From Candidatus Eiseniibacteriota bacterium (GTDB lineage: Bacteria > Eisenbacteria > RBG-16-71-46): a DNA stretch of 64,000 bases. Shown here piece after piece: positions 1 through 38,869 of this stretch; the stretch's first letter is position 1; each line of letters starts with the position of its first letter. A model generated the notes under the pieces. The model ran no database searches. It had not been told where the DNA came from and saw only the letters and a list, made by a program, of their open reading frames with translations. The stretch lies in NCBI GenBank assembly GCA_025360715.1, contig JANYBS010000031.1:1708-65707 (forward strand), read 5' to 3'. Both the position numbers and the translations under genes were made by a program.

Positions 1-3000
1 CTGGTCGATCGGGCCGGGGGGCCCCGCCCCGCCGGCGGGCCCGAACAGATCGCCCTGATCCACGACGATTGCGCCCGTATGGTCCTGGATACGCATTCGA
101 AGGGAGGGCGTCGAACCAGGCGATGCGTAGCCCAATTGGACGAATCCGGTCGCTGGGTCGCCGTTGGCATCGCGTGGGGCGAAGCCTAGGACCGAGGTGG
201 GCGACGCGGGGGCGCCGGCGCCGAAGCATGAACTGGCGGCCGTGAGCACATCGCCGTGCGAATTTCGCGGGTTGGGCAGTGTGCGAGTGACCAAGCTGTC
301 GTTCGGGAGTTTCTCGATGCTCTGACCGAAGTTGACGATCCCCGGGCCCGTATTGCCGATGCTGGCTTGCACCTGAAGACGGTCCAGTACGATCGAACTC
401 ACACCCGGCGCGGGTTGCCATCGCAATTCGAGGTTCGTCACGCCCGCGCTGGTCAGGACCTGATCGGGAATGATCCCATTGAGAGCCGCGAAGTCCCGGT
501 CCGCGATCAGCCAGTTCGCCCCGGCCGGCCAATTCTCACCGATGTGCCCGGTGAACAGCGGCGTCTCGCTAGGCGTCAGGGTGACTTGCCGAAGGCTGAC
601 GCCGTCGGGCAACGAGCGCGCAGGGCCATCGTTGCGAAGTTCGAGGAAGGCGCCTGTCTCATCCATGGGCTCGAAGCCACACCCGGGCGAGACCTCGCTG
701 AGCTGGACACGCGGGGCGTCATCTCGATAGCACGGCGCCGTCGCCACGGTGATGTTCGGATAGCGGTGAACGTTGGGGACCGCGACCGGGCCCTTGCTTC
801 GAGCGTTTCCTGTTGCGTCATAGTCATATCGATAGACGAACCCCGGCACCGGCATCGATTCCGTGGACGACCGCGAATAGGCGACTTGATTCGTGGCGAT
901 CCGCACCCCAGGGGCGATCTCAAAGTAGACAGTGATTCGCCCGCCTGCGGTGTCTAGCGGCGCGGGCAGCGTCGCGTCGGGCGTCACTCCGAAAGCACCT
1001 TGTGCGCTTGCCGGCGCAAGCAGGAAGTGGCCCGTTGAGGCGATCGGGTCCCACGCCCGTGAAGCGAACAAGTGTGGAAGGTTGGCGATCACGTTGCCAC
1101 TGGAATCGCGGATCTCGATCCCCACGGATGGATCGAGCGAGCCAGCGTGCAGGCAGCCCAATTCGACGAACGATGCCGACGAGGATCCGTCGGAGCATTC
1201 GAGCCCCAACCGCGTCACCACGAAGTAGCTCGGCGGGAGATACTGGAAGCACGTGCTCGTCGGCAGAGTGCCGTCGTGACGCAGTGCAGTCTGCTGGTCG
1301 ATCTGCGAAAAGGACACATTGGACGAGCGCACGAGTGCTGCGCCGCGGGGCGGTGCGGCGATGGCATCGTGGAATCCGTAACGGCATGTGTGCAGGATCG
1401 CTTCTGGGCTCGTTGCGGAGTCACGAAGGTAGAGCTGGATCGATCCGGAATCGGCAGGCGGGGCGTTGCTGAGAACGACATCGGGCGCGACACCAGTGCC
1501 ATTCGTGAAGTCGTTCAAGGCGAGCAGGATGCCGCCGCTGCCCCACGATCTGCCAATCAGGCCGGCCGGGACCGCCGGACGGTCTTCGAGCACAGTGCCC
1601 TGTCCATCACGGATGCGAATTCGCAGACCGCCGTCGATGCGTGAGTTCGGGTCGAGTGTGCCCAGCTCGATGAACCGCGTGTCGGCGACACCCGTGTAGC
1701 ATCCGAAAGCCACTTCGTCGATGCGCGTGCTCGTGTCGGGCGGGAACCAGCAGCGCGAGAAAGCGATGCGGCCGAGTAGATCGGTGGGCGTCGGCGGGCT
1801 CTTGAGCACGAACGTGCCATTCGGCTGCCGTTCCTGGCTCTCGCCATCGCCGGGCGCCGGAATCGATCCGGGGCCATAGTGCAGAGTGTCGAGTGCGCGA
1901 TGGACCAAAGGGTCGAACGGGTCCTGTAGGTACAACTCGAGAGAGCCGCCTTGGACGTCCAGCTCCGTCGACAGCGTCGTATCCGGAGGCGAAGCGCTCG
2001 TGGCCGCGAATGCGGCGCTGCCCAGCAGGAAACGTTGGCTCCGGCTCACGGCCGTACCACGGCGACCAGTGAAGATCCCGGCGAAGTCAGCAAGCAGCAG
2101 CCCGTTTCGATCCATGACACGCAATCCCACGCGGGTATTGAGGACCTGTGCCAGATCAAAGCCCAATTCGATGAAGGAACTCGCAACGTCGTCCCGGCAG
2201 CGCGTCCCGAACGACTGGAAGGATATCGAAGTCGTGTCGGCCACAAAGCAGTTGGCGCCTCCGACGCGGCCCGAGAGATTGGTCGGGCTTGGGACTGCGC
2301 TCAGTTGATACTCAGAGTCACTCACGCGCTGCAGGCTAGCGCCCGGCGGGATGGTCACGGCAGGCGCCCCGTACCGGACGTCGCTAAGGATCTGCTCGCC
2401 GCCATCGAGCGCCGTGCGATAGAGGACGACGCGGCCACCAGCGAGATCGGGTGGTGATGGCAGCAGGATGTCACCGCTCACACCGAACGCATTGAACTGT
2501 GCCGTTGCGAGCAGGAGGCGGGTGCCCTGCACGATGGTCTGCCCTTTCAGGCTCGAGCCGACGCTGAGATCACTCAGGAGGGCACCGGTGTGATTGAAGA
2601 GCCGCAGCCCGGTGCGTCCGTCGAATGTGTAGTTCGGCTTCACGCACTGGAGCTCGATGAACTGGGCGGGACTGCCCAGATCGCACTGGAGCCCGATCTC
2701 GTCGAGCCGCATTCCGTCCTGAGCGACGCCGGAGAAGCATTCGCCCGTTGCGAGTGTCCCGTCGGAACGCTGCGGGTCAGCCTGCGATTTGGTCGCGTAA
2801 CCACTGGGCGAATACTGGATGCTGCCGCCCGCCGGTGGCGGCGGTATCTGACCGGGGGTGGGACCGTACGTGAGTTCACTCACCACGCTGTCGGCGCTTC
2901 CCAGCGTGACATACACTTCGATGCGCCCGGCGGACAGTGAAGGTGGCAAAGGCACGAGAAGATCCGGCGACAGACCGGTGACGGACTGGAATCCGGGTGA

Positions 3001-4311
3001 GGCCAGAAGTGTCGGTGCGTTCGCAGGCACGTTCGTGATGGAGCCGCCGAAGATATCTGGCTGATCACTGACCACAGTTCCAGCCGCATCGCGCATCCGC
3101 ACGCCGACGCGCGAGTCACGCCTCTGCGGAGCCATGGCGCGCAGCTCGAGGAACCAGAATCCCGGAGCATCGCTCTTGCAGGCAACGCCGAACTCGTCGA
3201 TACGCCAGACGGGCAAGGCTGCCGACGCCAAATCGAAACACGCCGTATTCGTGGGCCCCTGTCCCGCACGGTTCGACGGTGTGGGACGTGCAGCCGCGAA
3301 GCTCCCGTCGCTCTGCCGCTGCAGGCTCTTGCCCGGGTCCGGCAACGGCGCACCGCCCGCGCTGCCGTAGGCGAGATGGTCGATGACCTCAAGCGTATCG
3401 CCACCGGAGTTCGGCAGGACCAGCTCGATATTCCCCCCCAGCGAATCGGGAAGACCGGCCAGCGTCAGGTCGGCCGCGGGACCCACGCCGGCGCTGAACG
3501 CCGCGCTGGCCGCAAGCCATCGAGTGCCCGCGGCGACCGGCTGGTTCGTCGCGCCTGCCAACAGGCGTGTCTGGATGATCACGTTTCCGAACGCGTTGGT
3601 GGCTCGCAGCGTCAGGTTCGGGTCGTAGTACTGCGCGGCGCCCGAGCGCGCGGTCACGAAGCGCATGCCCTTGGCACCATTCGCGCACGCGAGCATGGCC
3701 TCATCGATCACCCAATTCGTCTGCGGCTCATATCCGTAGCTGATATCGATCGACGACGCGCCCGCGGAGTTGGTGGGCGTCGGGTGCGACTGGCGGGTGA
3801 AGCCGCTCGCGACTCGCTGCAGGCTCTGGCCGTTGTACGGCGCCCGAGGCTGCCCCGCCGCACGGCCCCACGAGTACGAGTCAAGGTCCACGCGGTTGCC
3901 GTCATTGTCGAAGGTGTAGAGCGTCAATGTGCCCGCAGCCGCATCGATCCTGGACATCGCACCATCGCGCACGAGCCCGGTCTTGGTCGTGAACGCGCTG
4001 CCGCCCAGCAGCCACTTGCCATCCTGCGGCCACGCCGCGCCTTCGGTAGCGCCGAAGCTCACGAGCAGGTCGCTCGTGGCGCCCAGTCCTGTCGTGACCT
4101 CCAGGTGCAGCTCCGCATCGCGTGTCTGCCCGGGTGCCGTGGCGACCAGTTCCACGAACTGCGTATTCGCGTCACCAGCGCGCGTGGCCCAGCCGATCTC
4201 GTTGATGCGGATGGCGCTCATGTCGGCGTGGGCGCTGACGGCGAGCGACAGCAGTGCGAGCACGGCGGCTGTGGAAAGCACGGCGGTACGCTTGGCGGCG
4301 GGGATGCGCAT
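1..4311 (-). CDS. Secreted giant protein with ~9 lamin-tail-domain (LTD)-like repeats of ~150 aa each. It is 5'-partial only in the sense that it continues past the window start; the N-terminus and signal peptide are inside the window.
   Basis: ATG at 4311 (revcomp of cat 4309-4311) gives MRIPAAKRTAVLSTAAVLALLSLAVSAHA, a signal peptide. The track lists no complete minus-strand ORF in this frame across 1-4311, so the frame must be open to the window edge (1437 codons). Translation shows recurring INE/IDE..G..C...F(I/V)EL modules: IRINEIGWATRAGDANTQFVEL, WRIDEFGVACKSDAPGFWFLEL, MRLDEIGLQCDLGSPAQFIEL, TRIDEVAFGCYTGVADTRFIEL, LGLECSDGSSSASFVELG. All listed ORFs in this region are short antisense or out-of-frame pieces. 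Confidence 0.7.
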   Translation of the reverse strand, partial: MRIPAAKRTAVLSTAAVLALLSLAVSAHADMSAIRINEIGWATRAGDANTQFVELVATAPGQTRDAELHLEVTTGLGATSDLLVSFGATEGAAWPQDGKWLLGGSAFTTKTGLVRDGAMSRIDAAAGTLTLYTFDNDGNRVDLDSYSWGRAAGQPRAPYNGQSLQRVASGFTRQSHPTPTNSAGASSIDISYGYEPQTNWVIDEAMLACANGAKGMRFVTARSGAAQYYDPNLTLRATNAFGNVIIQTRLLAGATNQPVAAGTRWLAASAAFSAGVGPAADLTLAGLPDSLGGNIELVLPNSGGDTLEVIDHLAYGSAGGAPLPDPGKSLQRQSDGSFAAARPTPSNRAGQGPTNTACFDLASAALPVWRIDEFGVACKSDAPGFWFLELRAMAPQRRDSRVGVRMRDAAGTVVSDQPDIFGGSITNVPANAPTLLASPGFQSVTGLSPDLLVPLPPSLSAGRIEVYVTLGSADSVVSELTYGPTPGQIPPPPAGGSIQYSPSGYATKSQADPQRSDGTLATGECFSGVAQDGMRLDEIGLQCDLGSPAQFIELQCVKPNYTFDGRTGLRLFNHTGALLSDLSVGSSLKGQTIVQGTRLLLATAQFNAFGVSGDILLPSPPDLAGGRVVLYRTALDGGEQILSDVRYGAPAVTIPPGASLQRVSDSEYQLSAVPSPTNLSGRVGGANCFVADTTSISFQSFGTRCRDDVASSFIELGFDLAQVLNTRVGLRVMDRNGLLLADFAGIFTGRRGTAVSRSQRFLLGSAAFAATSASPPDTTLSTELDVQGGSLELYLQDPFDPLVHRALDTLHYGPGSIPAPGDGESQERQPNGTFVLKSPPTPTDLLGRIAFSRCWFPPDTSTRIDEVAFGCYTGVADTRFIELGTLDPNSRIDGGLRIRIRDGQGTVLEDRPAVPAGLIGRSWGSGGILLALNDFTNGTGVAPDVVLSNAPPADSGSIQLYLRDSATSPEAILHTCRYGFHDAIAAPPRGAALVRSSNVSFSQIDQQTALRHDGTLPTSTCFQYLPPSYFVVTRLGLECSDGSSSASFVELGCLHAGSLDPSVGIEIRDSSGNVIANLPHLFASRAWDPIASTGHFLLAPASAQGAFGVTPDATLPAPLDTAGGRITVYFEIAPGVRIATNQVAYSRSSTESMPVPGFVYRYDYDATGNARSKGPVAVPNVHRYPNITVATAPCYRDDAPRVQLSEVSPGCGFEPMDETGAFLELRNDGPARSLPDGVSLRQVTLTPSETPLFTGHIGENWPAGANWLIADRDFAALNGIIPDQVLTSAGVTNLELRWQPAPGVSSIVLDRLQVQASIGNTGPGIVNFGQSIEKLPNDSLVTRTLPNPRNSHGDVLTAASSCFGAGAPASPTSVLGFAPRDANGDPATGFVQLGYASPGSTPSLRMRIQDHTGAIVVDQGDLFGPAGGAGPPGPIDQ

Positions 4312-4444
4312 GACGGCGGGATCTCCGGGAGGATGGGGTGCCGGAAGGGGTGTCCCGCGCGGGGGCGTTGGGAGCGGGAAGATTATCCTCTGTGGGGGAT
4401 TGCCGTCTCAATAGGCGATTCGCCGCCGATGCGGCGCCCCGCAC

Positions 4445-4473
4445 TTGAACCACCGGAGCGTTTGGGCTTACCT
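4445..4473 (+). promoter_or_regulatory. Possible sigma70-like promoter for the histidine kinase gene
   Basis: TTGAAC, 17-nt spacer, TTACCT; lies 53 nt upstream of ATG 4527 in the divergent intergenic region. Confidence 0.25.
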
Positions 4474-4526
4474 GACTGTGGCTGGCCCATTGCGGCGGGC
4501 GGCCTCCCGAACCCCCGAGGATCCGA

Positions 4527-5822
4527 ATGACGACTCCGGACCCGTTCCGGCTGGGCAGCAAGCCGTTCGTGAAGGTGAGCCTGTTCCTGGGCGGAAGCCT
4601 CCTCGTGGTGGCGGTATTCCTATTCACACATCAGATGGTGCAGCGGCTCTCCGAAGAGGTCTCCACGACCTCGCGCGTTCTGGCGCAGTTCTGCGCGCAG
4701 GCATCGCTGCCCGCCACGCGCGATGCGCAGCTGCGCCAGCTGCTGTCCGAAGTCATCAATCACATCGATTTCCCGATCGTGATCACCGACACCACGGGCA
4801 CCGCGCGCGCGTGGCGCGACGTGGGCGTGGCGACCGACAGCCTGAGCGTTCCGCCCGAGGCGATCGACAGCCTGAGCCTGGGCTTTACGATCTCGCCCAG
4901 CGTGAAAGCGCGGCTCGACAAGGTGAAGGCGAGCATCCCGGAGATGGACCGTCAGCACGCGCCGATCGCGATGCAGCAACAGGGCACGAATCGCGTGCTC
5001 GGGCACGTGCACTACGGCGAGCCGGCGGTGCTGCGGCGCCTGCGCTGGATGCCGTTCCTTGCCATCGGCGGCACGGGCATCCTGGTGCTGCTGGGATTCT
5101 CGGGACTCGCCACGATCCGTTCCGCGGAGAAGCGCACGATCTGGGTGGGTATGGCGAAGGAGACTGCGCATCAGCTGGGCACGCCGCTGTCGAGCCTCAT
5201 GGGCTGGGTCGAGCTCTTGCGCGGTAATCTCGAGAGCGATCCGCGCGCGCAGGTCGTCGAAGTGCCGCGCGCCGAACTCGCCGAGACGCTCGATGACATG
5301 GAGCGCGACATCGAGCGGCTCTCCAAGGTTGCGCAGCGCTTCAGCCACATCGGCTCCGCGCCGCAGCTGCAGCTGCAGGATGTGACACCCGTGGTGCGCG
5401 AAGCGGTGCAGTATGTCTCGCGGCGAATTCCGCAGAGCCAGGGCGAGGTCGAGATCCGCGAACGCTACGAGGAAGTCCCGCCGATCAACCTGAATCGCGA
5501 GCTCCTCGAGTGGGCGGTCGAGAACCTGCTCAGCAACGCTCTGTCCGCACTCGACAAGAAGCCGGGCGTGATCGAGGTCGCCGTCGAGCGCCGCGCCGAG
5601 ACCGAAGAGGTGGAGATCAGCGTCACCGACAACGGCCGCGGCATGTCGCGCGAGGAACAGGGGAAGGCGTTCGAGCCAGGCTATACGACGAAGCGCCGCG
5701 GCTGGGGCTTGGGACTGGCCCTTGCGCGGCGCGTCGTCGAGGAATATCACGCGGGGCGGATCGGTATCCGCCACAGCGCGCCCGGGCAGGGGACCGTGAT
5801 GGTGATCCGCTTCCCGACGTGA
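4527..5822 (+). CDS. Sensor histidine kinase with two TM helices, HisKA and HATPase_c
   Basis: H-box HQLGTPLSSLMGWVELL. ATPase N/G boxes: ENLLSNALSAL, DNGRGM, GWGLGLALARRVV. TM segment LFLGGSLLVVAVFLF. Confidence 0.88.
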   Translation: MTTPDPFRLGSKPFVKVSLFLGGSLLVVAVFLFTHQMVQRLSEEVSTTSRVLAQFCAQASLPATRDAQLRQLLSEVINHIDFPIVITDTTGTARAWRDVGVATDSLSVPPEAIDSLSLGFTISPSVKARLDKVKASIPEMDRQHAPIAMQQQGTNRVLGHVHYGEPAVLRRLRWMPFLAIGGTGILVLLGFSGLATIRSAEKRTIWVGMAKETAHQLGTPLSSLMGWVELLRGNLESDPRAQVVEVPRAELAETLDDMERDIERLSKVAQRFSHIGSAPQLQLQDVTPVVREAVQYVSRRIPQSQGEVEIRERYEEVPPINLNRELLEWAVENLLSNALSALDKKPGVIEVAVERRAETEEVEISVTDNGRGMSREEQGKAFEPGYTTKRRGWGLGLALARRVVEEYHAGRIGIRHSAPGQGTVMVIRFPT

Positions 5823-5832
5823 TGCTACTAGA

Positions 5833-6693
5833 CTAATCCGACAGCCCAAGCGTCAGCGAGCCATCGCCGCTGCGTAGCCGCAACGTGGGTCCCCCGCCGT
5901 TGAGTTCGCCGCTCAGCTGGTGATGGCGGATGTCGCCGCGCACGGCGATCGGCAGGTCCACGTGCAGGCGGCCGTCGCCAGTGCGCGCATCGAGCATCGC
6001 TTTGAGGTCGTGCGGGATGTGCAGCTGCATGCCGCCATCGCGCGTCTCGAGGTTCCACGCGTCAGCCAGCCGCGAGCCGCGTTCGGCCTGCGCCTCGATG
6101 CGGCCATCGCCGGTGCGCAGGTCCAGATGGTCGAAGCGCCCGCTCACGTGCAGGTGGCCGTCGGTCGTATGCGCGCGCAGCGAACCGTCCAGGCCTTCGG
6201 CGTCGATGGCGCCGTCACCGCTGAAGAGCGTGATATCGCCGCGCGCGCCGGTCACGCGGATGTGGCCGTCACCGGTCTCGATCTGCACGTGACCGGACAG
6301 GTCGGGCACATCGACCGCGCCATCGGTGCTGCGCACATCGACCGCGCAGTTGGCAGGCACCGTCACGTCGATGGTGAACTGCTCGGATACGCCGCCGAAG
6401 AACACGTTCAGCCCGTGCGTGCGCGCGATGATCTCGACGCGGTTGTCGTTCTGCAGCAAGCTCACCTCGGGCTGGGTCTCGTGCACGTACAAGCCCCACT
6501 TCTTCACATCGTGCAGGACGCGGGCATGGACCGAACTGGCGGGGCCCACGTGCAGGCGCACATGGGCGTCGTTCGTGATCACACTCAGCGTGGGTGTGGG
6601 CCCGACCCGAAAGTCCTGGTCCCAGGTATTGGCGGCGGCAGGCGAGGATATCGCAATGGCCGCGACGGCCACGACAGCGAACAGATGGCGCAT
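5833..6693 (-). CDS. DUF4097-family beta-helical (putative adhesin-like) secreted protein
   Basis: Internal Met 45 of the track ORF gives MRHLFAVVAVAAIAISSPAAA (signal peptide), with GGAGG 8 nt upstream. Repeated DG..DV / GDG.I.V motifs. The upstream extension of the ORF is Arg-rich junk. Confidence 0.78.
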   Translation of the reverse strand: MRHLFAVVAVAAIAISSPAAANTWDQDFRVGPTPTLSVITNDAHVRLHVGPASSVHARVLHDVKKWGLYVHETQPEVSLLQNDNRVEIIARTHGLNVFFGGVSEQFTIDVTVPANCAVDVRSTDGAVDVPDLSGHVQIETGDGHIRVTGARGDITLFSGDGAIDAEGLDGSLRAHTTDGHLHVSGRFDHLDLRTGDGRIEAQAERGSRLADAWNLETRDGGMQLHIPHDLKAMLDARTGDGRLHVDLPIAVRGDIRHHQLSGELNGGGPTLRLRSGDGSLTLGLSD

Positions 6694-6796
6694 ACAGATG
6701 CCTCCGAGGTGATGCCTTCCATTGGACCAGCGTGTGCCCCGGATACGCCGCGGCCGGACTGCGGGTTGCAGCCCGGCCGGCGCGGCGCGAACCGCG

Positions 6797-8509
6797 TCAG
6801 CGCTTGGTGCCGAACTTGACGCCAAAGTAGTCGCCCTTGTTCCAGCTGGGCGCTTGCGCGTCCTGGGCCACGAACCACGCGGTCTCGAACGCCATGCGAG
6901 TGAAGCGGACGCCGCTCTCCCAGTCGAACATCTGTGTCATATCGTCGCTGGGTGAGTGGTAACGCGTGCGGTCCCAGTCATCGAGCGCCTTCGCGCCCTG
7001 GGCGCCGCCGCCCAACAAGGAAGTGGGGAAGATGCTCGGCACGCCCTGCTTGACGAACGGGAACTGGTCGCTGCGCACGAAGACCACTTCCTCGGGCCGC
7101 GGGTCCGGCACGACCGTGAGGCCGTTGAGCGTGGCCATGCGCTGGAGGACTGGTCCCAGTGTGGAGTGCTCGGCGCCGAAGCCGATCACCGTCGTGACCT
7201 TGGAGAGCAGCATGACTTCGTCGAGGTTCACGTCGGCCACCACGCGCAGGTCGAACGGCGCGGCGTGGCGCGCGAAGTAGTCGGCGCCCTGCAGGCCCTT
7301 CTCCTCGCCCGACACGTTCAGGAACAGGATTGAGCGCTTGGGGCGCGTCTTCATGCTCGTGAACGCGCGCGCCACCTCGATCATCATCGCCGTGCCCGAC
7401 GCGTTGTCGTACGCGCCATTGTTGATGGAGTCGCCGCTCACCGGCGTGCTGATGCCGAGATGGTCGAGGTGCGCCGAGATCACCACGCATTCCTTGGCGA
7501 GCTTGGGATCCGAACCGCGCAGCAGGCCCACCACGTTGGGGCTCTGCACGCGCGCGCGCGTGGTCACGCGCGTGGCGCGTAGGTGCGGCACAAGGTCGAA
7601 GCCCTGCGCCACGCTGGAATCCCCATCGGCGAAGATCTGCTCCACTGTGCGCGGCGCGTGATAGAAGAATGCGTCGAGCGGCTCACGCGCGAGCGTGCCG
7701 TTCAGTTCGAGGAGGGCCTGCGTGTTGCTCGGCGCGCCGCCTTGGTCGGTCCAGCGCATGGCCGAGAGCCGGCCCTGGCGCACGACTCGTTCCCACGCCA
7801 CGCGTTTTTCCTCGTCGGGCCTGCGCACGCTCAGGATGCCGATCGCGCCGTGAGCGGCCGCGATCTGCTCTTTTACGATGCTGTTCGAATAATACGCGCG
7901 CTGGTCGTGATCGAACTTCGGCGGCGCGCCGCGGAACGTGAGGATCACCTTGCCGCGCACGTCGACCTGGGCGAAGTCGTCGTAGCCCAGCTCGGGTGCG
8001 GACACGCCGTATCCGGCAAACGCGAGCGGCGCGTCGGTGGTCCATTTATCGCGCAGCAGGTCCGGGCTCAGCATGTAGTCCTCGGCGATCACCAGCGTGT
8101 CGTCGTTGCCCGGGCGCTGCAGCACCATCATGCACTCGCCCTCGCGGATGCGGCCGCTCATATAGGGGACGCTCTGCAAGAAGGTCGAGTCGCCGCCGCC
8201 CGCAGGTTCCAGCCCCAGCGCGAGCATGCGCGTGGCCATGTAGTGCGCGGCCAGGTCGTAGCCGCGAGTGCCCGTGCCGCGGCCCTCGAGCAGGTCGTCG
8301 GCCAGGTAGCGGATGGTCGCCTCCAGTTGGCGGCCATCGATGGCGCCTGCGGCCTGCGTGACGCTGGGCGGCAGCGGTACGAGCGGGACGATGTGCTGCG
8401 CGGCCTTGGGTGACAACATTGGCGCGGCAGCGGCGGCAGCCGCGGCGGCGACAAGCGTCGCGGCGGCAGCCAGGAGCAGACGGCGGGTGCGATTCGGGAG
8501 CGCGGACAT
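6797..8509 (-). CDS. M28-family Zn aminopeptidase with PA domain, secreted
   Basis: Start at Met 103 gives MSALPNRTRRLLLAAAATLVAAAAAAAAAP (signal peptide). Zn-ligand motifs HLDHLG, NNGAYDNASG and GEEKGLQGADYF. Confidence 0.85.
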   Translation of the reverse strand: MSALPNRTRRLLLAAAATLVAAAAAAAAAPMLSPKAAQHIVPLVPLPPSVTQAAGAIDGRQLEATIRYLADDLLEGRGTGTRGYDLAAHYMATRMLALGLEPAGGGDSTFLQSVPYMSGRIREGECMMVLQRPGNDDTLVIAEDYMLSPDLLRDKWTTDAPLAFAGYGVSAPELGYDDFAQVDVRGKVILTFRGAPPKFDHDQRAYYSNSIVKEQIAAAHGAIGILSVRRPDEEKRVAWERVVRQGRLSAMRWTDQGGAPSNTQALLELNGTLAREPLDAFFYHAPRTVEQIFADGDSSVAQGFDLVPHLRATRVTTRARVQSPNVVGLLRGSDPKLAKECVVISAHLDHLGISTPVSGDSINNGAYDNASGTAMMIEVARAFTSMKTRPKRSILFLNVSGEEKGLQGADYFARHAAPFDLRVVADVNLDEVMLLSKVTTVIGFGAEHSTLGPVLQRMATLNGLTVVPDPRPEEVVFVRSDQFPFVKQGVPSIFPTSLLGGGAQGAKALDDWDRTRYHSPSDDMTQMFDWESGVRFTRMAFETAWFVAQDAQAPSWNKGDYFGVKFGTKR

Positions 8510-8747
8510 GAATGGCCTCGGGTCAGTGGTTCGGCCGCACGGGGTGCGGCCACGGTTCTGGACGCGGCGACGATGCTTGCATGTCAGGCCCGCGTCAATG
8601 CCCACATGACGGCCGCGGGCCCGCCACCGCTGGCTGGTCCCTTGGTCGGCCGCTATAGTCGCCCGGCATCCGGAACCTTGGCGCCGCGGCCGGGGTTCTG
8701 CAGCTGCCCGCAGCTCGCAGCGACCCATTCCCACGAGCGTAAGCGCC

Positions 8748-10346
8748 ATGCCGAACGACGTCCCACGCCGGATCCTATGGGCCGACGACGAGATCGATCT
8801 CCTCAAGCCGCACATCCGTTTCCTCGAGCAGAAGGGCTACGCGGTCACGCCCGTGCTCAATGGCGAAGACGCGCTCGCCCGCATCGAGGCGGAGCGCTTC
8901 GATGTGCTGCTGCTCGACGAGATGATGCCGGGCATGGGCGGGCTCGAGACGCTTGCGCAACTCAAGGCGCGCGAGATCAACCTGCCGGTGATCCTCATCA
9001 CCAAGAGCGAAGAAGAGACGCTCATGGAAGAGGCGATCGGCAAGCGCATCACCGATTACCTGATCAAGCCGGTGAACCCCTCGCAGGTATTCCTGGCCTG
9101 CAAACGCGTGTTCGATTCGCAGAAACTGCAGGATTCGCAGCGCGCCCGCGACTACGTGGGCGAGATGCAGCGTTGGCAGACCATGGACATCCGCCATCTG
9201 GACTGGGCAGGCTGGGCCGCGCTCGCGGTGGATGTGGCCAAGTGGGACGTGGGCCTGGACGGCGCGCCCGAGGCGGGCCTGCAGCAGGCGCATGGGGATT
9301 TCCGGCGCAGCCTCAACATCGATTTCAGCCGCTTCATCGAGGACAAGTACCCGGGCTGGGTAGCGACTGCGGCCAAGGGATCCGATGAGAACCGCCCGCC
9401 GCTGTCATGCGATGTGGTGCGCCACAAGGTGGTACCCGAACTCAGGGCAGGCAAACGCGTCGTGTTCATCGTGATCGACTGCATGCGGCTCGACCAATGG
9501 TTCACTTTGGAGCCATTGCTGGAGGACTGGTTCGATATCGAGCGTGATTACTACTGCTCGATCGTGCCCACCGCCACGCCGTATTCGCGCAATTCGATCT
9601 TCTCGGGGCTCCTGCCGGCGCAGTTATGGAAGAAGCACCCGGACCTGTGGCAGGAGAACACGCACGACGAGCGCACGCGCAACCGCTTCGAGCGCCAGTT
9701 CATGGACTTCCAGCTCGAACGTCTGGGCGCCACGCCGGCGCGGCCGCCGAAGTATCTCAAGATCTACGACCAGGACGAGGCCATCAACACGCGGCGCCAG
9801 ATCAATTCATTCTCCGGCGTACCGCTGGTCTCGATGGTCTTCAACTTCCTCGATATCCTCGCGCACGGCCGCTCCGAGAGCGAGATCCTGCAGGAACTCG
9901 CGCCCGATGAAGCGGCGTTCCGCGCGGTCATGAAGGCGTGGTTCACGCACTCGCCGCTCTACGAGATCTTCCAAGCGCTCTCCACGCAGGACTGCACGGT
10001 GGTCGTGACCACCGACCACGGCGCGGTGCTGGGAAAGCGCGCGGCGCTCGTGTACGGCAATCGTGACACGTCGACCAACCTGCGCTACAAGTTCGGCATC
10101 AACCTGAACACAGATGTGAAGCAGGCGATCATCATCCGCAAGCCCATGGACTATCAGCTGCCCGATGACGGCGTGAACAAGAACTACGTGCTCGCGCGCG
10201 AGGACTACTATTTCGTGTATCCCACGAAATTCCACGAGTACGAACGCCAGTACCGTGGTTCGCTGCAGCATGGCGGCGTGTCGGTCGAAGAGATGATCCT
10301 GCCACTCATGACGCTGCGCCCCAAGGCGCCGCGGCCCGGAGCGTGA
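8748..10346 (+). CDS. PorX-like response regulator: CheY receiver plus C-terminal PglZ (alkaline-phosphatase-superfamily) domain, no DNA-binding domain
   Basis: Receiver ILWADDEIDLLK...VLLLDEMMPGMGG...LIKP. PglZ-like segment VFIVIDCMRLDQW...TATPYSRNSIFSG...VVVTTDHGAV. Confidence 0.85.
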   Translation: MPNDVPRRILWADDEIDLLKPHIRFLEQKGYAVTPVLNGEDALARIEAERFDVLLLDEMMPGMGGLETLAQLKAREINLPVILITKSEEETLMEEAIGKRITDYLIKPVNPSQVFLACKRVFDSQKLQDSQRARDYVGEMQRWQTMDIRHLDWAGWAALAVDVAKWDVGLDGAPEAGLQQAHGDFRRSLNIDFSRFIEDKYPGWVATAAKGSDENRPPLSCDVVRHKVVPELRAGKRVVFIVIDCMRLDQWFTLEPLLEDWFDIERDYYCSIVPTATPYSRNSIFSGLLPAQLWKKHPDLWQENTHDERTRNRFERQFMDFQLERLGATPARPPKYLKIYDQDEAINTRRQINSFSGVPLVSMVFNFLDILAHGRSESEILQELAPDEAAFRAVMKAWFTHSPLYEIFQALSTQDCTVVVTTDHGAVLGKRAALVYGNRDTSTNLRYKFGINLNTDVKQAIIIRKPMDYQLPDDGVNKNYVLAREDYYFVYPTKFHEYERQYRGSLQHGGVSVEEMILPLMTLRPKAPRPGA

Positions 10347-10375: not shown

Positions 10376-10852
10376 ATGTCCGGAAGCCTGGTGCGGCATA
10401 CGGATTCGGTCGAGGCGACCGGTCGTCTTGGTGCGGCCTTCGCTATCGAGCTGCGCGTGGGCGATGTCGTGGCGCTGCGAGGCGACCTTGGCGCGGGCAA
10501 GACGCGCTTCGTGGCCGGTATGGTGCACGCGTTCGATCCGCACGCGCGCGTGCGCAGCCCGAGCTTCACGCTCGTGAACGAATACCTGCTGGCCACGCCG
10601 ATCTTTCATCTGGACCTGTACCGTTTGGAGCGCTCGAGCGAGACCGACAGCTTGGGGCTCGAGGAATACGCTTCACGCGGCGCGCTCATCGTGGAGTGGG
10701 GCGAGCGCTTGCCCGCGTCGTGGCTCGCCGAGGCGCTCATGATCGCGATCACGTCGGGCGAGGGCGACCAGCGGACGTTCCACGCGAGCGCCTTCGGCGG
10801 CCGCGGCAAGGAGCTTCTCGAAGCTTGGCGCGCGCTGCCGGAGGCGCCGTGA
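10376..10852 (+). CDS. tsaE: tRNA t6A37 biosynthesis ATPase TsaE (YjeE)
   Basis: P-loop GDLGAGKT. Typical TsaE length. Start at Met 12 of the track ORF, just after the PorX-like stop. Confidence 0.8.
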   Translation: MSGSLVRHTDSVEATGRLGAAFAIELRVGDVVALRGDLGAGKTRFVAGMVHAFDPHARVRSPSFTLVNEYLLATPIFHLDLYRLERSSETDSLGLEEYASRGALIVEWGERLPASWLAEALMIAITSGEGDQRTFHASAFGGRGKELLEAWRALPEAP

Positions 10853-12030
10853 ACGGACTCGCGATCGAGTCCGCCACCGATCACGTGGAGGTCGCGGCCG
10901 TTTACGGTGAGGCTGTGATGGCGCACCGCATCGAGGAAGTCGGCCACGGGCACACGCGCAGACTCGCCGCGATCTGCGAAGACGTGCTTACCGAAGCGCG
11001 GCTGGCGCCCAAGGACCTTGCGTGGGTCGCCGCCGATCTGGGCCCCGGCTCGTTCACCGGTGTGCGCGTGGGGCTCGCAACCGCGCGCGCGTATGCGTTC
11101 GCGGGCGGCGCCAAGGTGCTCGGCGCCTCGAGCCTGGCCTCCCTTGCGCAGGCGGCCCCGGCGCGCCGCGCGCTCGTGGTGCCGCTCGTGGGCGCCGGCC
11201 GGCGCGATGTCTACGCAGGCTTCTTCCGCCGCGGCGCGCGCGGACCGGCCATCCTGGTGGCCGCGCCGCGCGTGCTGCCGGCCGACGCGCTGCTCGACGC
11301 GGTCGCCGAGGTGCATTCGGTGGTGCCCGAGCTTGCTGTGCGCTTCGTGGGTCCGGGCGCGGGGCGCGAGCAGGAGCGGCTGGAAGCGCGGTATCCCACA
11401 TCGACCGCACTCGCCTTTCGGCATGATGGCCTCTCGGCGCTCGATCTGGCTGCTGCGGTGCGGTCGGGGCTTGGCGCGGGCCACGGACTGCCGGCCGCCG
11501 GCCGCGAGGCCGAGCCGCTCTACGTGCGCTCCGCGCAAGCCGAGGAGCGCGTGCGTCACGCGGCGATGAGCCACATCGAGGTCGCCGTGCGCCACACCGT
11601 ATTGAGTGACGTGCCGGTGATCAGCGCGCTCGAGCAGCACATCTATTCCGACGCTTGGGAAACCACCTTCTTCCACAGCCTGCTGCGCCAGAAGGGCGGC
11701 TTCTCGCGCGTGGTCGATCGCAGCGGCGAGCTTGCCGGGTATCTCTTTGCGCGCATGCTGCCGCCGGGTTGCGACCTGGAGAACATCGCGGTCTCGCCGC
11801 TGCATCGCCGCGCAGGCGTGGCGCGGATGCTGCTCGCAGCACTGTTCGACGGCTGCCGCGCGAACGGTGTGAACCACGTGATGCTCGAAGTGCGCGTGAG
11901 CAATGACAACGCCCAGGCTCTGTACCGCAGCCTGGGCTTTCGGTTGGTGGGCCTGCGCCGCGGTTACTACACCGATCCCGAAGAGGACGCGCTGCTCATG
12001 CGCATCGAGGTGCCGCGCGCGAGCGGGTAG
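10849..12030 (+). CDS. tsaB: TsaB (YeaZ)–RimI (GNAT ribosomal-protein-alanine acetyltransferase) fusion protein
   Basis: GTG at 10849 overlaps the tsaE TGA (GTGA). N-terminal VNGLAIESATDHVEVAAV...DLGPGSFTGVRVG matches the TsaB fold. The C-terminal ~150 aa is a GNAT/RimI domain (NIAVSPLHRRAGVARMLL...MLEVRVSNDNAQALYRSLGF). There is no stop codon between the two domains. Confidence 0.75.
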   Translation: MNGLAIESATDHVEVAAVYGEAVMAHRIEEVGHGHTRRLAAICEDVLTEARLAPKDLAWVAADLGPGSFTGVRVGLATARAYAFAGGAKVLGASSLASLAQAAPARRALVVPLVGAGRRDVYAGFFRRGARGPAILVAAPRVLPADALLDAVAEVHSVVPELAVRFVGPGAGREQERLEARYPTSTALAFRHDGLSALDLAAAVRSGLGAGHGLPAAGREAEPLYVRSAQAEERVRHAAMSHIEVAVRHTVLSDVPVISALEQHIYSDAWETTFFHSLLRQKGGFSRVVDRSGELAGYLFARMLPPGCDLENIAVSPLHRRAGVARMLLAALFDGCRANGVNHVMLEVRVSNDNAQALYRSLGFRLVGLRRGYYTDPEEDALLMRIEVPRASG

Positions 12031-15109: not shown

Positions 15110-16429
15110 GTGACCCATTCGCTGCAGCGCCAACTCGAAGCCCTCTACGGTCTCGAGCGCCGGCGCGACAAGCTCGGCTTGGACGGCACCCGCGCACTGC
15201 TCGCCGCGCTCGGCGACCCGCACACGCGCTTCCGCTGCGTGCATGTGGCCGGCACGAACGGCAAGGGCTCGGCATGTGCGCTCATCGAGCGCGTGCTGCG
15301 CGCGGCTGGTGCTCGCTCGGGCCTCTTCACGTCGCCGCATCTGGTGGACTTCCGCGAGCGCTTCCGCGTGCGCGGCCACTGGGGCGACGAGGCCACGCTG
15401 AGCGCGCGTCTCGCGTATGTCGAATCGCTGCCCCAAGCGCAGGACCGCACCTTCTTCGAGGTGGCGACCGCGCTGGGCTTCGATTGGTTCGCATCGCAGA
15501 AGGTGGATTGGGCGGTGCTGGAAGTCGGCTTGGGCGGGCGCTTGGATACCACCAACGTGGTCACTCCCAAGGTCTGCGCGATCACATCGATCGGGCTCGA
15601 CCACGCCGAGATACTGGGCGACTCGCACGAGAAGATCGCCGCCGAGAAGGCGGGTATCCTCAAACCCGGCGTGCCGGCGATCTCGGGAGTCGAGCACGAC
15701 GCGGCGGCCAGCACGATCGCGCGCATCGCCCGCGAAGTCGGTGCGCCGCTCGTGCAGGCGCGCGACGTGGTCGACGTGAAGGATACGATCTACGGCCCGT
15801 GGGGCACGCGACTATCGATCGAGTGCGAGCCGTGGGGGCGCTTCCAGTTGCAGACCACGCTGCGCGGCAGCCATCAGCGCGAGAACGCGCGCGTCGCGAT
15901 CGCGGTACTGGCGCAACTCACGCAGCAAGGCGTGCCCTTGCCGCTGGCCGCGCTGCGCGAGGGCTTCGCTGCCACACGTTGGCCCGGGCGGCTGGAGCCT
16001 TCGCCCACCGTGCGGCGGCTGTGGTGGGACGGCGCACACAACCTGGATGGCGTGCGCCGCCTGGCGCAGGCGTGGCGCGATGAGATGCAACTCGAGCCGC
16101 CATTCGCGGTGGTGTTCGCAGTCGCGCGTGACAAAGACGCACTGGCCATGCTGCGCCGGTTGCAGAGCTTCGCACCCAGCGCGCGGTTCATCCTCACGCG
16201 CACGCGCAACGAACGCGCGCTGCCGGTGGATGTGCTGCAGGAACACGCGAAGAGCATAGGGCTGATCGCCGAGACGGCGCCAAGCGTTGAGGCAGCGCTG
16301 CGTCCGCTCTTGGATCACGGCGACGATGGCCGCGGCAAGGCGGCGGGCCGTGTGCTCCTCGCGGGCTCGCTCTTCGCCGTGGGCGAAGCGATGGAAGCGT
16401 TTGGCGGCGCGCCAGGAGATGTGCAGTGA
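15110..16429 (+). CDS. folC: Dihydrofolate synthase / folylpolyglutamate synthase (Mur ligase family)
   Basis: GTG at Val 74 of the track ORF, 20 nt after the accD stop. P-loop VAGTNGKGS. Mur-ligase middle and C-terminal motifs. Confidence 0.82.
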   Translation: MTHSLQRQLEALYGLERRRDKLGLDGTRALLAALGDPHTRFRCVHVAGTNGKGSACALIERVLRAAGARSGLFTSPHLVDFRERFRVRGHWGDEATLSARLAYVESLPQAQDRTFFEVATALGFDWFASQKVDWAVLEVGLGGRLDTTNVVTPKVCAITSIGLDHAEILGDSHEKIAAEKAGILKPGVPAISGVEHDAAASTIARIAREVGAPLVQARDVVDVKDTIYGPWGTRLSIECEPWGRFQLQTTLRGSHQRENARVAIAVLAQLTQQGVPLPLAALREGFAATRWPGRLEPSPTVRRLWWDGAHNLDGVRRLAQAWRDEMQLEPPFAVVFAVARDKDALAMLRRLQSFAPSARFILTRTRNERALPVDVLQEHAKSIGLIAETAPSVEAALRPLLDHGDDGRGKAAGRVLLAGSLFAVGEAMEAFGGAPGDVQ

Positions 16430-19400
16430 GCCGCCTGCGCGCGATCTCCTGCGTCGCGCTGCGTGCCGCCGCGTGGGCAGCGCTCCTGTGCGCCACGTTC
16501 ATGCTGGCACCCGGCATTCGCTCCGCGAATGCCGCTGCGGAGGAGCCGCCTTTCCACATCACCGCCAACAACATGACCGGCGGCCGCGAGCCCAGCGGCG
16601 ACGTGCTGTACCTGAACGGCGACATCCGCGTCACGCGCGGCAAGACGCTCCTCACCGCCGATGCCGGCCGATACCTGCGCGCCACGGGGATGATCGACCT
16701 GAACGGCCATGTGAAGCTCGTGGACTCGACGACCACCGTCACGTGCGAACACGCGCAGTTCTCGGAGAACGACGACCGCCTGAACCTGGACGGCAACGTG
16801 GTGATCGTCGACAAGACGGCGACGCTGCGCGCGCCGACCGGCTGGTACGACCGCAAGAACGGACTCGCGCATCTCTCCGGCGGCGTCACGGGCAGTGAGA
16901 AGCTCCAGCGCCTGTCGGCCGATGAGGTCACCTACCTGCGCGATTCGCTGCTCGTGCAGGCGCGCGGGCGCGTGAAGGGCTTCGACGACGAGAACAAGGT
17001 GGAGCTGAGCGCGCGCTCGGTGGACTTCTACCGCAAGACGAAGATCGCGGTCGCGACGGGCGACCCCGAGATGCGTTCCAAGGATACGGACGGCCAGACG
17101 AGCATCCTGCGCGCGCGCCTGCTGCGTGTGGACTCCGATGCCAAGACCGCCGAGGCGATCGATTCGGTGACGGTGGAGCGCGACACGCTGCGCGCGCGCG
17201 CCGATCGCGCGTTCTTCGACGACAGGCAAGGCCGCGGGCTCATGCTCGGCTCGCCGCGCGCGTACGACAACGAGACGAGCGTGAGCGGTGACACGCTGGA
17301 GTTGCTGTCGGACAACCACAAGCTGCGCAAGGTCGTCGTGCACAGCAATGCCACCATGGACTACCTGGGCCGGCGCGAGACGAACAGCGGCGAGACCAGC
17401 CGGCTGAGCGGCGCGCGCATCGAGGCCTATGTGGTGGAGGACCGCATCGACAGCCTGCGCGCCACCGGCGCGGCGCGAAACGGATATTCGTCGCCGAGCA
17501 AGGCCGGTAAGACGAACGAGACCAACCAGGCCAGTGGCGATACCATCCTGGTTTATTTCAAGGACAAGAAGATCGACCGCGCCCGCGTGATCGGCACCGC
17601 CTCGGGCGAGTACCGGCCGTCGGTCGCGAAGGACGACACGACCGCGGTGATCAACGAGGTCGTGCGCTACGACGGCAAGAAGATCGACTTCGTGGTGCCC
17701 AAGAACACCATCGTGCTCGACGGCGACGCGCACCTGACTTACCGCGAGATGGAACTCACCGCCAAGCGCGTGGAGTTCGACAGCGACAAGCAGACGCTGG
17801 TGGCCACCGGTAAGCCGCAGTTGCAGGACCGCGGCGATAAGGTCGACGGCCACCTCATGAGCTATGACATGCAGACGCGCACGGGCACGATCTACCAGGC
17901 GCAGACGGCGTACGAGAAGGGTCTGTACCGCGGCCAGCGAATTCGCAAAGCGGGCGACAATGAACTCGATGTGCTGGGCGGCTCGTACAGCACCTGCGAT
18001 CTCGACGAGCCGCACTATCACTTCTCGGCGCGCTGGATGAAGATCTATCTCAAAGACAAGCTCGTCGCGAAGCCGGTGGTGTTCTATCTGCGCAACGTGC
18101 CGATCTTCGCGCTGCCGTTCTACGTCTTCCCGATCAAGCCGGGCCGGCACTCGGGGTTCCTGTTCCCGCAGTTCGAGCTGGGATTCAACAACAAGTCGGG
18201 CCAGTTCCTGCGCAACGCCGGTTACTACTGGGCGCCCAACGACTACTTCGACCTCACCGGCGCCGCGGACTATTATCAGGCCGCGCCGTCGTATGCGATC
18301 CGCGGGGAGGGCAACTACAAGCTCTTGTATCGCTTCGACGGGCACTTCGAGGGGCGCTTCGAGCACAACGACGCCACGGGCCGCGATGACTACGTGTTCG
18401 ACGGCACGCACCAGCAGGACGTGACGCCGCGCACGCGGCTCACCGCGCAGGGCAACTTCGTCTCGAGCCGCGACTACAACAACAGCGCATTCTCGGGCGC
18501 CACGCTCGAGCAGCGGCTCAACCGCTTCCTGCGCTCGAACATCTCGATCTCGCATTCCGCGGACTGGGCGGCGTTCAACGCAGTCATCGACCGCAACCAG
18601 GATCTGGACGCCGACCAGTCGATCGTCTACTCGTCGGCGAACGGCGCCTCCACCGCGCCAGCCATCGGCCAGCGCGCGAGCCTGGCGAACCTGAGCGTGT
18701 CGTCGCCCAACCTGAGCGTGAGCTTTCCCACGCGCACGCTGGGCAGCTACGCCTTCCTGAAAGACCGGCCGCTCGGCAAGGCGCTGCAGACGACTTACTT
18801 CAGCCTCAACACCCAGTTCCTCTCGCAGAGCACCCGGCAGGCGTTCGTGAAGAACTACCTCGTCACCAACGGCGGGCTCGACTCCTCGACCGTGCTCGAT
18901 CAGCAGGTGCTCACGCGCCGCGGATTCCGCACCAATGTGTCGATCAGCGATTCACGCCGCGCGTTCGGTTGGCTGAACATCGCTCCTGGCGTGAATGCCA
19001 CGGGCGTGGTGTTCGACTTCGACGAACAGGGTCGCAAGGTCGTGCCGGCCGCGGTGTGGTCATCGCAGTTGTCCATGTCGAGCACGTTCTACGGCACGTT
19101 CAAGCCGCCCATCCCCAAGTTGGTGGGCTTGCGGCACGTGATCGCGCCGGCGCTGTCGTTCAGCTACAGCCCCGATTTCTCGGGCCTGCAGTACACCGAC
19201 ACGGCGGGCGTGCGCCGCAACCGCTTCAATGGCTTCGGCGGCATCTCGATCTCGGGCTTCAAGAGCGCGAATATGAACTTCAGCCTGGACCAGCGCTTCC
19301 AGGTGAAGCTCAAGGACCACGATCAGGTCACGCGCCTCGACAACCTGTTGAGCATGACCACATCGGGCTCGTACAACTTCCTCTATCAGGAAGCGCACCA

Positions 19401-34518: not shown

Positions 34519-34695
34519 GTCTCCTCCAGACGTGGGCCATGCGAGTACGTGCGGCGCGCAGCATAAGCGCCGCGGCTGCCGCGTGGAAAGTCTGCGCTGG
34601 CGCGAATGCCCGCAATTGGTGCAGCGTGCGTGCGTGTGCATGGCGCCGGTGTGGCGCCGGTGTGGCGCGAGCGAACTCTTCTGGCAGGAGACAAG

Positions 34696-37164: not shown

Positions 37165-37263
37165 AGCGCTGCAGAATGTCCCGCCGGCTGCCGAGAAACA
37201 GGGCCGCCGGCGCGTTGCTGACCCGGCGTCCGCGTCCGCCGCAACGCTTTTCGCCTCCTTGTC

Positions 37264-37293
37264 TTGACGCTCCCCAAGGGTGGCCCCTAGACT
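37264..37293 (+). promoter_or_regulatory. Promoter-like element TTGACG-N18-TAGACT, 60 nt upstream of ATG 37354
   Basis: Shares the extended motif GGGTGGCCCCTAGaCT with the elements at 43099 and 40359. Confidence 0.4.
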
Positions 37294-37353
37294 CAGTGAC
37301 CTCACCTTGGCTCCCGGCTGCCTTGTATCCCTTTTGAGGAGAGACTCCACAAG

Positions 37354-38790: not shown

Positions 38791-38869
38791 CGGCTGTTCC
38801 ATGCGACCAAGAGGGCTCCGGACCGGGCGCACCGGTCCGGAGCCATTTCGTTTCCGGGAGAGGGCTTTC

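What the first reader, a model, noticed from the sequence alone, without database searches (positions are those of the whole stretch)
1..4311. Giant exported protein built from ~9 Cys-containing lamin-tail-domain-like repeats
An open frame of at least 1437 codons on the minus strand is absent from the ORF track because it runs off the window edge. It encodes a signal peptide followed by repeated ~150-aa modules.

Each module has the LTD hallmarks. There is an N-terminal (I/V)(N/D)E(I/V/F)G, and about 15 residues later an aromatic-(I/V)EL strand. Examples are IRINEIG...QFVEL and RIDEFGVACKSDAPGFWFLEL.

Almost every repeat also carries a conserved Cys between these motifs (G.xC, with C at about +3 to +5 after the (N/D)E.G). 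That is not a standard LTD feature.

The gene is transcribed divergently from a sensor kinase gene. A PorX-like regulator lies 4 kb away. Its C-terminus is outside the window, so a T9SS C-terminal domain or other sorting signal cannot be assessed.
Basis: partly seen in the sequence, partly recalled or inferred. Interest (0 to 1): 0.55.

Follow-up and report, generated by a model that had tools for sequence, protein, structure and literature searches.

The report
Giant secreted protein of lamin-tail-like repeats
The window holds the first two thirds of a very large secreted surface protein from an uncultured Eisenbacteria bacterium, built from nine tandem copies of a divergent lamin-tail-type beta-sandwich domain, most with a conserved cysteine pair; it is a new sub-type of a known kind of protein, not a new kind of system.

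Summary
The minus-strand frame is open from the stop at 4408-4410 to the window edge, with ATG at 4311 and 1437 codons. It encodes a signal peptide, eight complete repeats of about 167 aa, and the start of a ninth.

The LTD reading is supported, but only by sensitive methods. Pfam and NCBIfam find nothing in the protein. Four other lines agree:
- A profile of 68 repeats reaches Pfam-verified LTDs.
- hhalign against canonical LTDs gives 97% probability.
- The AlphaFold2 model has pLDDT 92.6.
- Its nearest solved folds are DUF4876 and nuclear lamin Ig-like domains.

The conserved Cys is half of a pair. Its partner is the Cys at the C-terminal end of the same domain (238 of 239 co-occurrence). 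Window repeat 1 has lost both. A disulfide is inferred, not measured.

Full-length homologues are 1857-2080 aa and 26-38% identical. They end in a beta-sandwich, an Fn3-like domain and a T9SS type A sorting domain.

The kinase and PorX-like neighbours are a conserved serS-HK-porX block. The giant gene sits there only in two lineages, and other family members lie in unrelated contexts.

Most likely it is a fast-evolving, T9SS-exported, cell-surface fibrillar protein. Interest is modest.

The parts
1..4311 (-). N-terminal 1437 codons of the giant gene. By alignment with the syntenic orthologue P0001 (2077 aa), about 640 codons, including the C-terminus, lie beyond the window edge.
4225..4311 (-). 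Signal peptide, aa 1-29 (MRIPAAKRTAVLSTAAVLALLSLAVSAHA). No lipobox Cys.
   Evidence: read from the sequence, no predictor run.
3751..4224 (-). Repeat 1 (aa 30-187). Both Cys of the pair are absent (Ser at the r1/r2 boundary). It is the repeat best conserved with orthologues (46-57%).
3238..3750 (-). Repeat 2 (aa 188-358). Cys pair 209/358.
2737..3237 (-). Repeat 3 (aa 359-525). Cys pair 378/525.
2248..2736 (-). Repeat 4 (aa 526-688). Cys pair 543/688, plus an extra Cys at 556.
1750..2247 (-). Repeat 5 (aa 689-854). Cys pair 705/854.
1249..1749 (-). Repeat 6 (aa 855-1021). Cys pair 871/1021, plus an extra Cys at 976. This is the repeat that was modelled (pLDDT 92.6).
730..1248 (-). Repeat 7 (aa 1022-1194). 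Cys pair 1039/1194, plus an extra Cys at 1053.
226..729 (-). Repeat 8 (aa 1195-1362). Cys pair 1211/1362. It is the most divergent complete repeat.
1..225 (-). Start of repeat 9 (aa 1363-1437), cut by the window edge. It lacks the loop Cys.
4312..4526 (.). 215-bp divergent intergenic region between the giant gene and the histidine kinase gene. It presumably holds both promoters; this was not analysed.

Best explanation
The gene encodes a Sec-exported, T9SS-delivered cell-surface protein of a Candidatus Eisenbacteria bacterium.

Proposed route. After signal-peptide cleavage the chain folds in the periplasm into a string of 9-10 beta-sandwich domains, each about 165 aa. Each domain is a divergent lamin-tail domain (LTD) with the usual C-terminal two-strand extension. 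Most domains are locked by one disulfide, between the loop after strand 1 and the domain's C-terminal tail. A C-terminal beta-sandwich, an Fn3-like domain and a type A sorting domain are seen in the homologues. These would direct export through the T9SS and attachment to the cell surface by the C-terminus. The array then acts as a stiff, protease-resistant stalk. The N-terminal repeats 1-2, which are the most conserved, sit at the distal tip as the likely binding end. This is the layout of a fibrillar adhesin or surface fibril.

Shown here:
- the open frame, the repeats and the positional orthology of the repeats;
- LTD homology and fold;
- co-occurrence of the two Cys;
- the sorting domain in homologues;
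- rapid divergence and patchy presence of the gene.

Inferred, not shown:
- the disulfide itself;
- T9SS export of this particular protein;
- surface anchoring, the stalk/tip roles and any ligand.
For: Gene and repeats.

LTD homology:
- The A1 profile matches Pfam-verified LTD regions.
- hhalign gives 97.3% probability.
- LTD is the only Pfam family touched by more than one repeat.

Fold:
- AF2 gives pLDDT 92.6 and pTM 0.89.
- The Foldseek top hit is the mouse lamin Ig-like domain, followed by many lamin entries at probability 0.98-1.0.

Cys pair:
- Of 239 domains with the loop Cys, 238 have the C-terminal Cys, but only 196 have a Cys at the N-terminal boundary.
- The 42 exceptions are first or single domains.
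- Window repeat 1 lost both partners.
- Canonical LTDs carry 0.21 Cys per domain.

T9SS:
- PF18962 matches the extreme C-terminus of 4 of 5 homologues.
- TIGR04183 matches 9 of 10.
- The organism is diderm (LptD, RND efflux pump) and has a PorX-like regulator.

Orthology and evolution:
- P0001 sits in the same place, between serS and the kinase.
- The giant protein is 37% identical to it, against 73-79% for the kinase and PorX-like neighbours.
- Repeat-by-repeat identity is highest on the diagonal, and repeats 1-2 are the best conserved.
Against: - The window lacks the C-terminus, so the sorting domain of this protein is unobserved.
- P0001, the syntenic orthologue, matches TIGR04183 only at E 0.0066 (16.4 bits against a cut-off of 23) and has no Pfam hit.
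- Nine last repeats have a C-terminal Cys without the loop Cys.
- Three window repeats have a third, unpaired Cys.
- No ligand, adhesive-domain signature or conserved partner gene was found.
- GC3 of the gene is 0.775, below its neighbours' 0.83-0.91. That fits low expression or foreign origin and says nothing about function.
Confidence: 0.6

Rival explanations
1. The molecule is as described, but it works as a non-adhesive structural coat: an S-layer-like, spacer or barrier protein. On this view it shields the outer membrane or sets cell-surface spacing, and its rapid divergence reflects phage or predator pressure rather than ligand binding.
For: - No adhesive tip domain distinct from the repeats was found.
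- The protein is acidic (pI 4.9), Lys-poor and rich in G/A/S/T/P.
- It diverges fast and is present only patchily among close relatives.
Against: - Repeats 1-2 are more conserved than the rest, which fits a specialised distal end better than a uniform coat.
- A single gene that is absent from about 28 related loci is unlikely to be an essential envelope layer.
Confidence: 0.2
2. The LTD array binds an extracellular polymer, either DNA or a polysaccharide. The protein would then be a matrix or nutrient-capture scaffold, by analogy with LTDs attached to extracellular nucleases such as ExeM.
For: - In other bacteria, LTDs are found fused to extracellular nucleases and hydrolases. This is reported in papers listed (PMC6085458, PMC8289736), which I did not read in detail.
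- Distant relatives of the repeat are fused to PKD, Fn3, cytochrome c and carboxypeptidase-regulatory domains.
Against: - Neither this protein nor its homologues carry a catalytic domain.
- The protein is acidic (pI 4.9), which is unfavourable for DNA binding.
- The LsGW.L strand motif of canonical LTDs is replaced in this subfamily.
- No carbohydrate-binding module signature was found.
Confidence: 0.1
3. The gene is a functional partner or target of the adjacent PorY/PorX-type two-component system. On this view the divergent arrangement reflects co-regulation.
For: - The gene is transcribed divergently from the kinase across 215 bp.
- The same arrangement occurs in the P0001 lineage.
Against: - In about 28 other Eisenbacteria loci, serS abuts the kinase directly and no giant gene is present.
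- The family members P0003 and P0005 lie in unrelated contexts.
- The kinase is followed directly by the PorX-like gene in deeper relatives, so those two are the conserved pair.
Confidence: 0.1

Closest known systems
Lamin tail domain (Pfam PF00932, LTD), bacterial extracellular LTDs
   Same: - The fold is the same: an Ig-like beta-sandwich whose nearest solved neighbours include lamin B1, A/C and B2.
- The strand motifs are the same: I.E at strand 1, F(I/V)EL at strand 2, the GG.I.L...vd.v.YG pair, and the G.S..R...PTP tail.
- Profile-profile probability is 97%.
- Like many bacterial LTDs it sits in an exported protein. Tandem LTD arrays also exist elsewhere, for example P0111 and P0136.
   Different: - It falls below Pfam's gathering score. 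The whole protein gives no hit at all.
- The central LsGW.L.d strand is replaced by L.LR..D..G, and about 20 aa are inserted before the PD..LP segment.
- It has a conserved Cys pair that canonical LTDs lack.
DUF4876 (PDB 4q1z, BT_1938), a putative lid lipoprotein of a TonB-dependent transporter
   Different: - Sequence identity is only 9%, and no sequence-level link was found.
- It is a lipoprotein of about 390 aa, not a repeat array.
- Its proposed role as a transporter lid (10.1101/2023.03.17.533168) does not fit a 2000-aa protein bearing a T9SS sorting domain.
Giant repetitive T9SS cargo and fibrillar adhesins (for example SprB-type gliding adhesins; Ig/Fn3/cadherin-stalk adhesins)
   Same: - It has a signal peptide, a long array of Ig-like stalk domains and a C-terminal T9SS type A sorting domain in its homologues.
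- It diverges fast compared with neighbouring genes.
   Different: - The stalk is built of LTD-type domains with a disulfide in each.
- No separate adhesive head domain is present.
- The host is Eisenbacteria, not Bacteroidota.
- No motility or partner genes lie nearby.

The comparison with SprB rests on my own knowledge. It was not tested.

Membership tests
Lamin tail domain, Pfam PF00932 | Match to the Pfam LTD model at or above its gathering score (34.3 bits) | tested here: not met
   The whole protein gives no hit at E<=1. Of 68 family repeats scanned singly, 2 touch LTD, with best E 0.0021.
Lamin tail domain, superfamily level | Significant profile-level homology to bona fide LTDs over the whole domain | tested here: met
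   The A1 profile hits P0097, P0139 and P0086 at E 1e-10 to 1e-17, in a library of 1.84 billion. It does so on residues that Pfam LTD also matches at or above its gathering score. hhalign against 28 canonical LTDs gives probability 97.3% and E 7e-11 over 137 columns.
Lamin tail domain, superfamily level | Lamin-type Ig-like beta-sandwich fold | tested here: met
T9SS cargo with type A C-terminal sorting domain (TIGR04183 / PF18962) | A C-terminal domain of about 75-80 aa matching the sorting-domain model, at the extreme C-terminus | not testable with these tools
T9SS cargo with type A C-terminal sorting domain (TIGR04183 / PF18962) | N-terminal Sec signal peptide | tested here: met
   The n-, h- and AxA features were read from the sequence. 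No predictor was run.
T9SS cargo with type A C-terminal sorting domain (TIGR04183 / PF18962) | The host genome encodes the T9SS core machinery | not tested
   Only a PorX-like regulator and a PorY-like kinase are seen in the window. No core component was looked for beyond the window.
Fibrillar adhesin | Stalk of tandem repeats, plus a surface anchor, plus a distinct adhesive domain or demonstrated binding | tested here: inconclusive
   The stalk is present. The anchor is seen only in homologues. No distinct adhesive domain was found; there is only higher conservation of repeats 1-2.

The most novel reading that the evidence does not exclude
The Cys-stapled LTD is a separate, so far unannotated domain family. 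It has about 50 strong members among 1.84 billion representatives. On the most novel reading, its positionally conserved repeats each keep a distinct binding specificity. The protein would then be a variable, rapidly evolving multi-ligand surface fibre of Eisenbacteria, for example in cell-cell or cell-particle attachment, or as a phage receptor or decoy. Its gain and loss at the serS-porY junction would mark an envelope-variation hot spot.
Probability: 0.12. Interest if true: 0.5.

Novelty: new variant of a known kind. Interest (0 to 1): 0.33.

Why it matters
- It defines a divergent LTD subfamily that Pfam and NCBIfam do not capture. The subfamily has a conserved intradomain Cys pair and a confident structural model, which could seed a new family model and improve annotation of FCB-group metagenomes.
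- It adds LTD-type domains to the stalk repertoire of giant T9SS surface proteins.
- It gives a first candidate surface fibre for the uncultured phylum Eisenbacteria.
- It does not bear on a long-standing open question.

Tried and rejected
- Pfam and NCBIfam scans of the whole protein found nothing.
- A sequence-profile search of the PDB with the repeat alignment gave only chance hits at E 0.1-0.4.
- The search for related loci with the giant protein in genome contigs found no relative.
- The search for homologous proteins with the A1 profile returned nothing at E<=1e-10. This is probably word-index saturation.
- The afdb50 fold library was unavailable.
- A family-specific CTD HMM found no other sorting-domain ORF in the window.
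- The Bacteroidetes O-glycosylation motif D[ST][AILVMT] is not clearly enriched: 9 observed against 5.9 +/- 2.3 in shuffles.
- I first assumed that the boundary Cys pairs with the loop Cys about 17 aa downstream. The co-occurrence table rejects this in favour of the same-domain pair about 148 aa apart.
- I considered co-regulation with the kinase and PorX-like genes and rejected it as a conserved association.
- A pseudogene or chance ORF is excluded. The frame is open (P about 3e-14), GC3 exceeds GC1 and GC2, and orthologues exist.
Full report
**Observation**

The minus strand of 1-4410 has one frame open for 1469 codons, running off the left edge. The stop is at 4408-4410. At the window's 68% G+C a stop is expected about every 47 codons, so the chance of such a frame is about 3e-14. 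The other two minus-strand frames reach at most 194 codons.

The first ATG is at 4311, preceded by GGAG. It gives 1437 aa beginning MRIPAAKRTAVLSTAAVLALLSLAVSAHA|D. This is a typical type I signal peptide with no lipobox. I read it by eye and ran no predictor.

GC3 (0.775) exceeds GC1 and GC2, as expected for a real gene. It is lower than in the neighbouring genes, which have 0.83-0.91.

**Repeats**

I cut the protein at the recurring Cys and aligned the pieces. This gave eight units of 163-173 aa and the start of a ninth.

- An HMM built from the window's units alone finds 9-10 copies in every full-length homologue, at E 1e-20 to 1e-39.
- The family HMM finds nothing else in the window.
- Repeats within the protein are only 22-34% identical.
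- Repeat i of the window is most similar to repeat i of P0001 and P0003: repeat 1 at 46% and 57%, repeat 2 at 47% and 47%, the others at 31-41%. Off-diagonal pairs are 22-36%.

The array is therefore old and positionally conserved, and it has not been homogenised. Repeats 1-2 are the most constrained.

**Relatives**

A word-indexed search of 5.8 billion proteins gave only ten homologues. They are 26-38% identical, and the full-length ones are 1857-2080 aa. One is named by NCBI as a T9SS type A sorting domain protein of Candidatus Eisenbacteria.

An exhaustive profile search of 1.84 billion representatives with the 68-repeat alignment A1 gave 51 proteins at E<=1e-30 and 949 at E<=1e-3.

**Is it an LTD?**

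Direct library scans say no.
- Pfam and NCBIfam give no hit for the whole protein at E<=1.
- When 68 repeats are scanned singly, LTD is the only family hit more than once, but only twice, with best E 0.0021.
- A sequence profile against the PDB found nothing.

Three more sensitive tests agree that it is a divergent LTD.
1. *Transitive profile match.* The A1 profile matches P0097 (26-185), P0139 (16-154) and P0086 (1388-1519) at E 1e-10 to 1e-17. Pfam LTD matches those same residues at or above its gathering score.
2. *Profile against profile.* hhalign of A1 against 28 canonical LTDs, seeded on Pfam-verified domains, gives 97.3% probability and E 7e-11 over 137 columns. It aligns the I.E strand, F(I/V)EL, the GG.I.L...YG pair and the G.S..R...PTP tail.
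3. *Structure.* AlphaFold2 on repeat 6 with A1 gives pLDDT 92.6 and pTM 0.89, all beta.
   - Foldseek ranks the mouse lamin Ig-like domain first, followed by many lamin A/C, B1 and B2 entries at probability 0.98-1.0. Its E-values are weak, about 4e-3.

Compared with canonical LTDs, the central LsGW.L strand motif is replaced and about 20 aa are inserted before a conserved PD..LP segment.

**The cysteines**

Each repeat has two conserved Cys. The other lies at the repeat boundary.

I counted 273 domains from the family and its nearer relatives, of which 266 had room to score the C-terminal boundary.
- The loop Cys co-occurs with the Cys at the C-terminal end of the same domain in 238 of 239 cases.
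- It co-occurs with a Cys at the N-terminal boundary in only 196 of 239.
- The 42 exceptions are first or single domains, which have no preceding domain.

In the window, repeat 1 lacks the loop Cys, and the r1/r2 boundary residue is Ser where orthologues have Cys. This is a double loss.

The window's pairs are 209/358, 378/525, 543/688, 705/854, 871/1021, 1039/1194 and 1211/1362. There are three extra Cys, at 556, 976 and 1053. Canonical LTDs average 0.21 Cys per domain.

The simplest reading is one intradomain disulfide that ties the strand 1-2 loop to the C-terminal tail. It would form in the periplasm before export. I could not measure the distance, because model coordinates are not returned. 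The disulfide is therefore inferred.

**The missing C-terminus**

The window aligns to residues 4-1418 of P0001, which is 2077 aa long, so about 640 residues are missing.

- Pfam Por_Secre_tail matches the extreme C-terminus of 4 of 5 homologues, below the gathering score.
- TIGR04183 matches 9 of 10, with best E 4.7e-7. P0001 scores only E 0.0066.
- An AF2 model of the last 395 aa of P0001 has pLDDT 76 and shows three beta domains.

The family architecture is therefore: signal peptide, 9-10 Cys-LTD domains, a beta-sandwich, an Fn3-like domain, and a T9SS type A sorting domain.

**Context**

The neighbouring genes are:

| Coordinates | Strand | Gene |
|---|---|---|
| 4527-5822 | + | histidine kinase, two TM segments |
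| 5833-6825 | - | DUF4097 |
| 6797-8815 | - | M28 peptidase |
| 8748-10346 | + | receiver+PglZ, PorX-like |
| 16426-19962 | + | LptD |
| 27031-30540 | + | RND efflux pump |

The last two show the organism is diderm. The kinase's closest relatives, at 65-75% identity, are Candidatus Eisenbacteria MAGs.

Across 32 loci the conserved order is serS, then kinase, then PorX-like. In deeper relatives the kinase is followed directly by the PorX-like gene, so these two are the cognate pair, PorY/PorX-like.

The giant gene lies between serS and the kinase, on the opposite strand, only in the window and in the P0001 species (L001, L002, L005). In about 28 other loci serS abuts the kinase. P0003 and P0005 lie in unrelated neighbourhoods. 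The association with the two-component system is therefore positional and not conserved.

Between the window and L001, identities are kinase 73%, PorX-like 79%, M28 54%, DUF4097 44% and the giant protein 37%. The giant protein evolves fast.

**Mechanism**

The most likely reading is a T9SS-exported surface fibril. It would be anchored by its C-terminus, with a disulfide-stapled LTD stalk and the conserved N-terminal repeats at the distal end. I put this at about 0.6.

The rivals are a non-adhesive coat, a polymer-binding scaffold, and a target of the adjacent regulators. They are weighed in the Rival explanations section.

**Literature**

I found no paper on LTD arrays in T9SS cargo or on T9SS in Eisenbacteria. 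DUF4876 is discussed only as a putative lid of TonB-dependent transporters.

**Verdict**

- The feature is real.
- The Cys is one of a pair.
- The regulatory link is incidental.

This is a new variant of a known kind, of modest interest.

Noticed in passing
window 4527-5822(+) and 8748-10346(+); loci L003-L034: serS, a histidine kinase (two TM segments) and a receiver+PglZ (PorX-like) gene form a conserved block across Eisenbacteria. In deeper relatives (L024, L026-L034) the kinase is followed directly by the PorX-like gene, so the kinase looks like its cognate PorY-type partner. Kinase orthologues at 35-45% identity occur across FCB-group phyla.
   Followed up: partly
window 5833-8815(-); L001 5289-8519: The stretch between the kinase and the PorX-like gene is variable. 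In the window lineage, DUF4097 and an M28 peptidase are inserted there. In L001, L004 and L020 a CHAT-TPR gene of about 1076 aa is inserted as well. The serS-kinase junction also gains and loses the giant gene, so the region behaves as an insertion hot spot.
   Followed up: partly
window 1-4311(-): GC3 of the giant gene is 0.775, against 0.83-0.91 for eight other genes of the window. This may reflect low expression, relaxed codon selection or foreign origin.
   Followed up: no
proteins P0102, P0107, P0113, P0116, P0125, P0128, P0138: A second LTD-like group has no Pfam coverage. It is a single N-terminal domain directly after a signal peptide, with the motif FHLMK(V/I)(S/D)EV...QF(V/I)EL. Some members (P0102, P0116, P0125, P0128) share a Cys pattern different from the window family's (G.(V/I)CF ... 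(H/D)C(I/V)AYG), while P0107, P0113 and P0138 have only partial versions of it. It is fused to Fn3, CarboxypepD_reg, IPTL-CTERM or Cys-rich modules.
   Followed up: no
window 21246-23600(+), 25580-27034(+), 27031-30540(+): A heavy-metal resistance cluster: a P-type ATPase with an HMA domain, a CusB-type membrane-fusion protein with a heavy-metal-binding domain, and an RND pump.
   Followed up: no
window 36043-39231(-) and 52137-55457(-): Two ORFs of more than 1000 aa (1062 and 1106 aa) have no convincing Pfam domain. In 68% G+C DNA they could be spurious, or they could be real unknown proteins.
   Followed up: no
window 31834-34965(-): A 1043-aa protein with a Ser/Thr protein kinase domain followed by PD40/WD40-like beta-propeller repeats.
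   Followed up: no
window 10696-12030(+): An apparent fusion of a TsaB-like (TsaD-family fold) domain with a GNAT acetyltransferase (RimI-like). The same fusion is seen in L001, next to tsaE.
   Followed up: no
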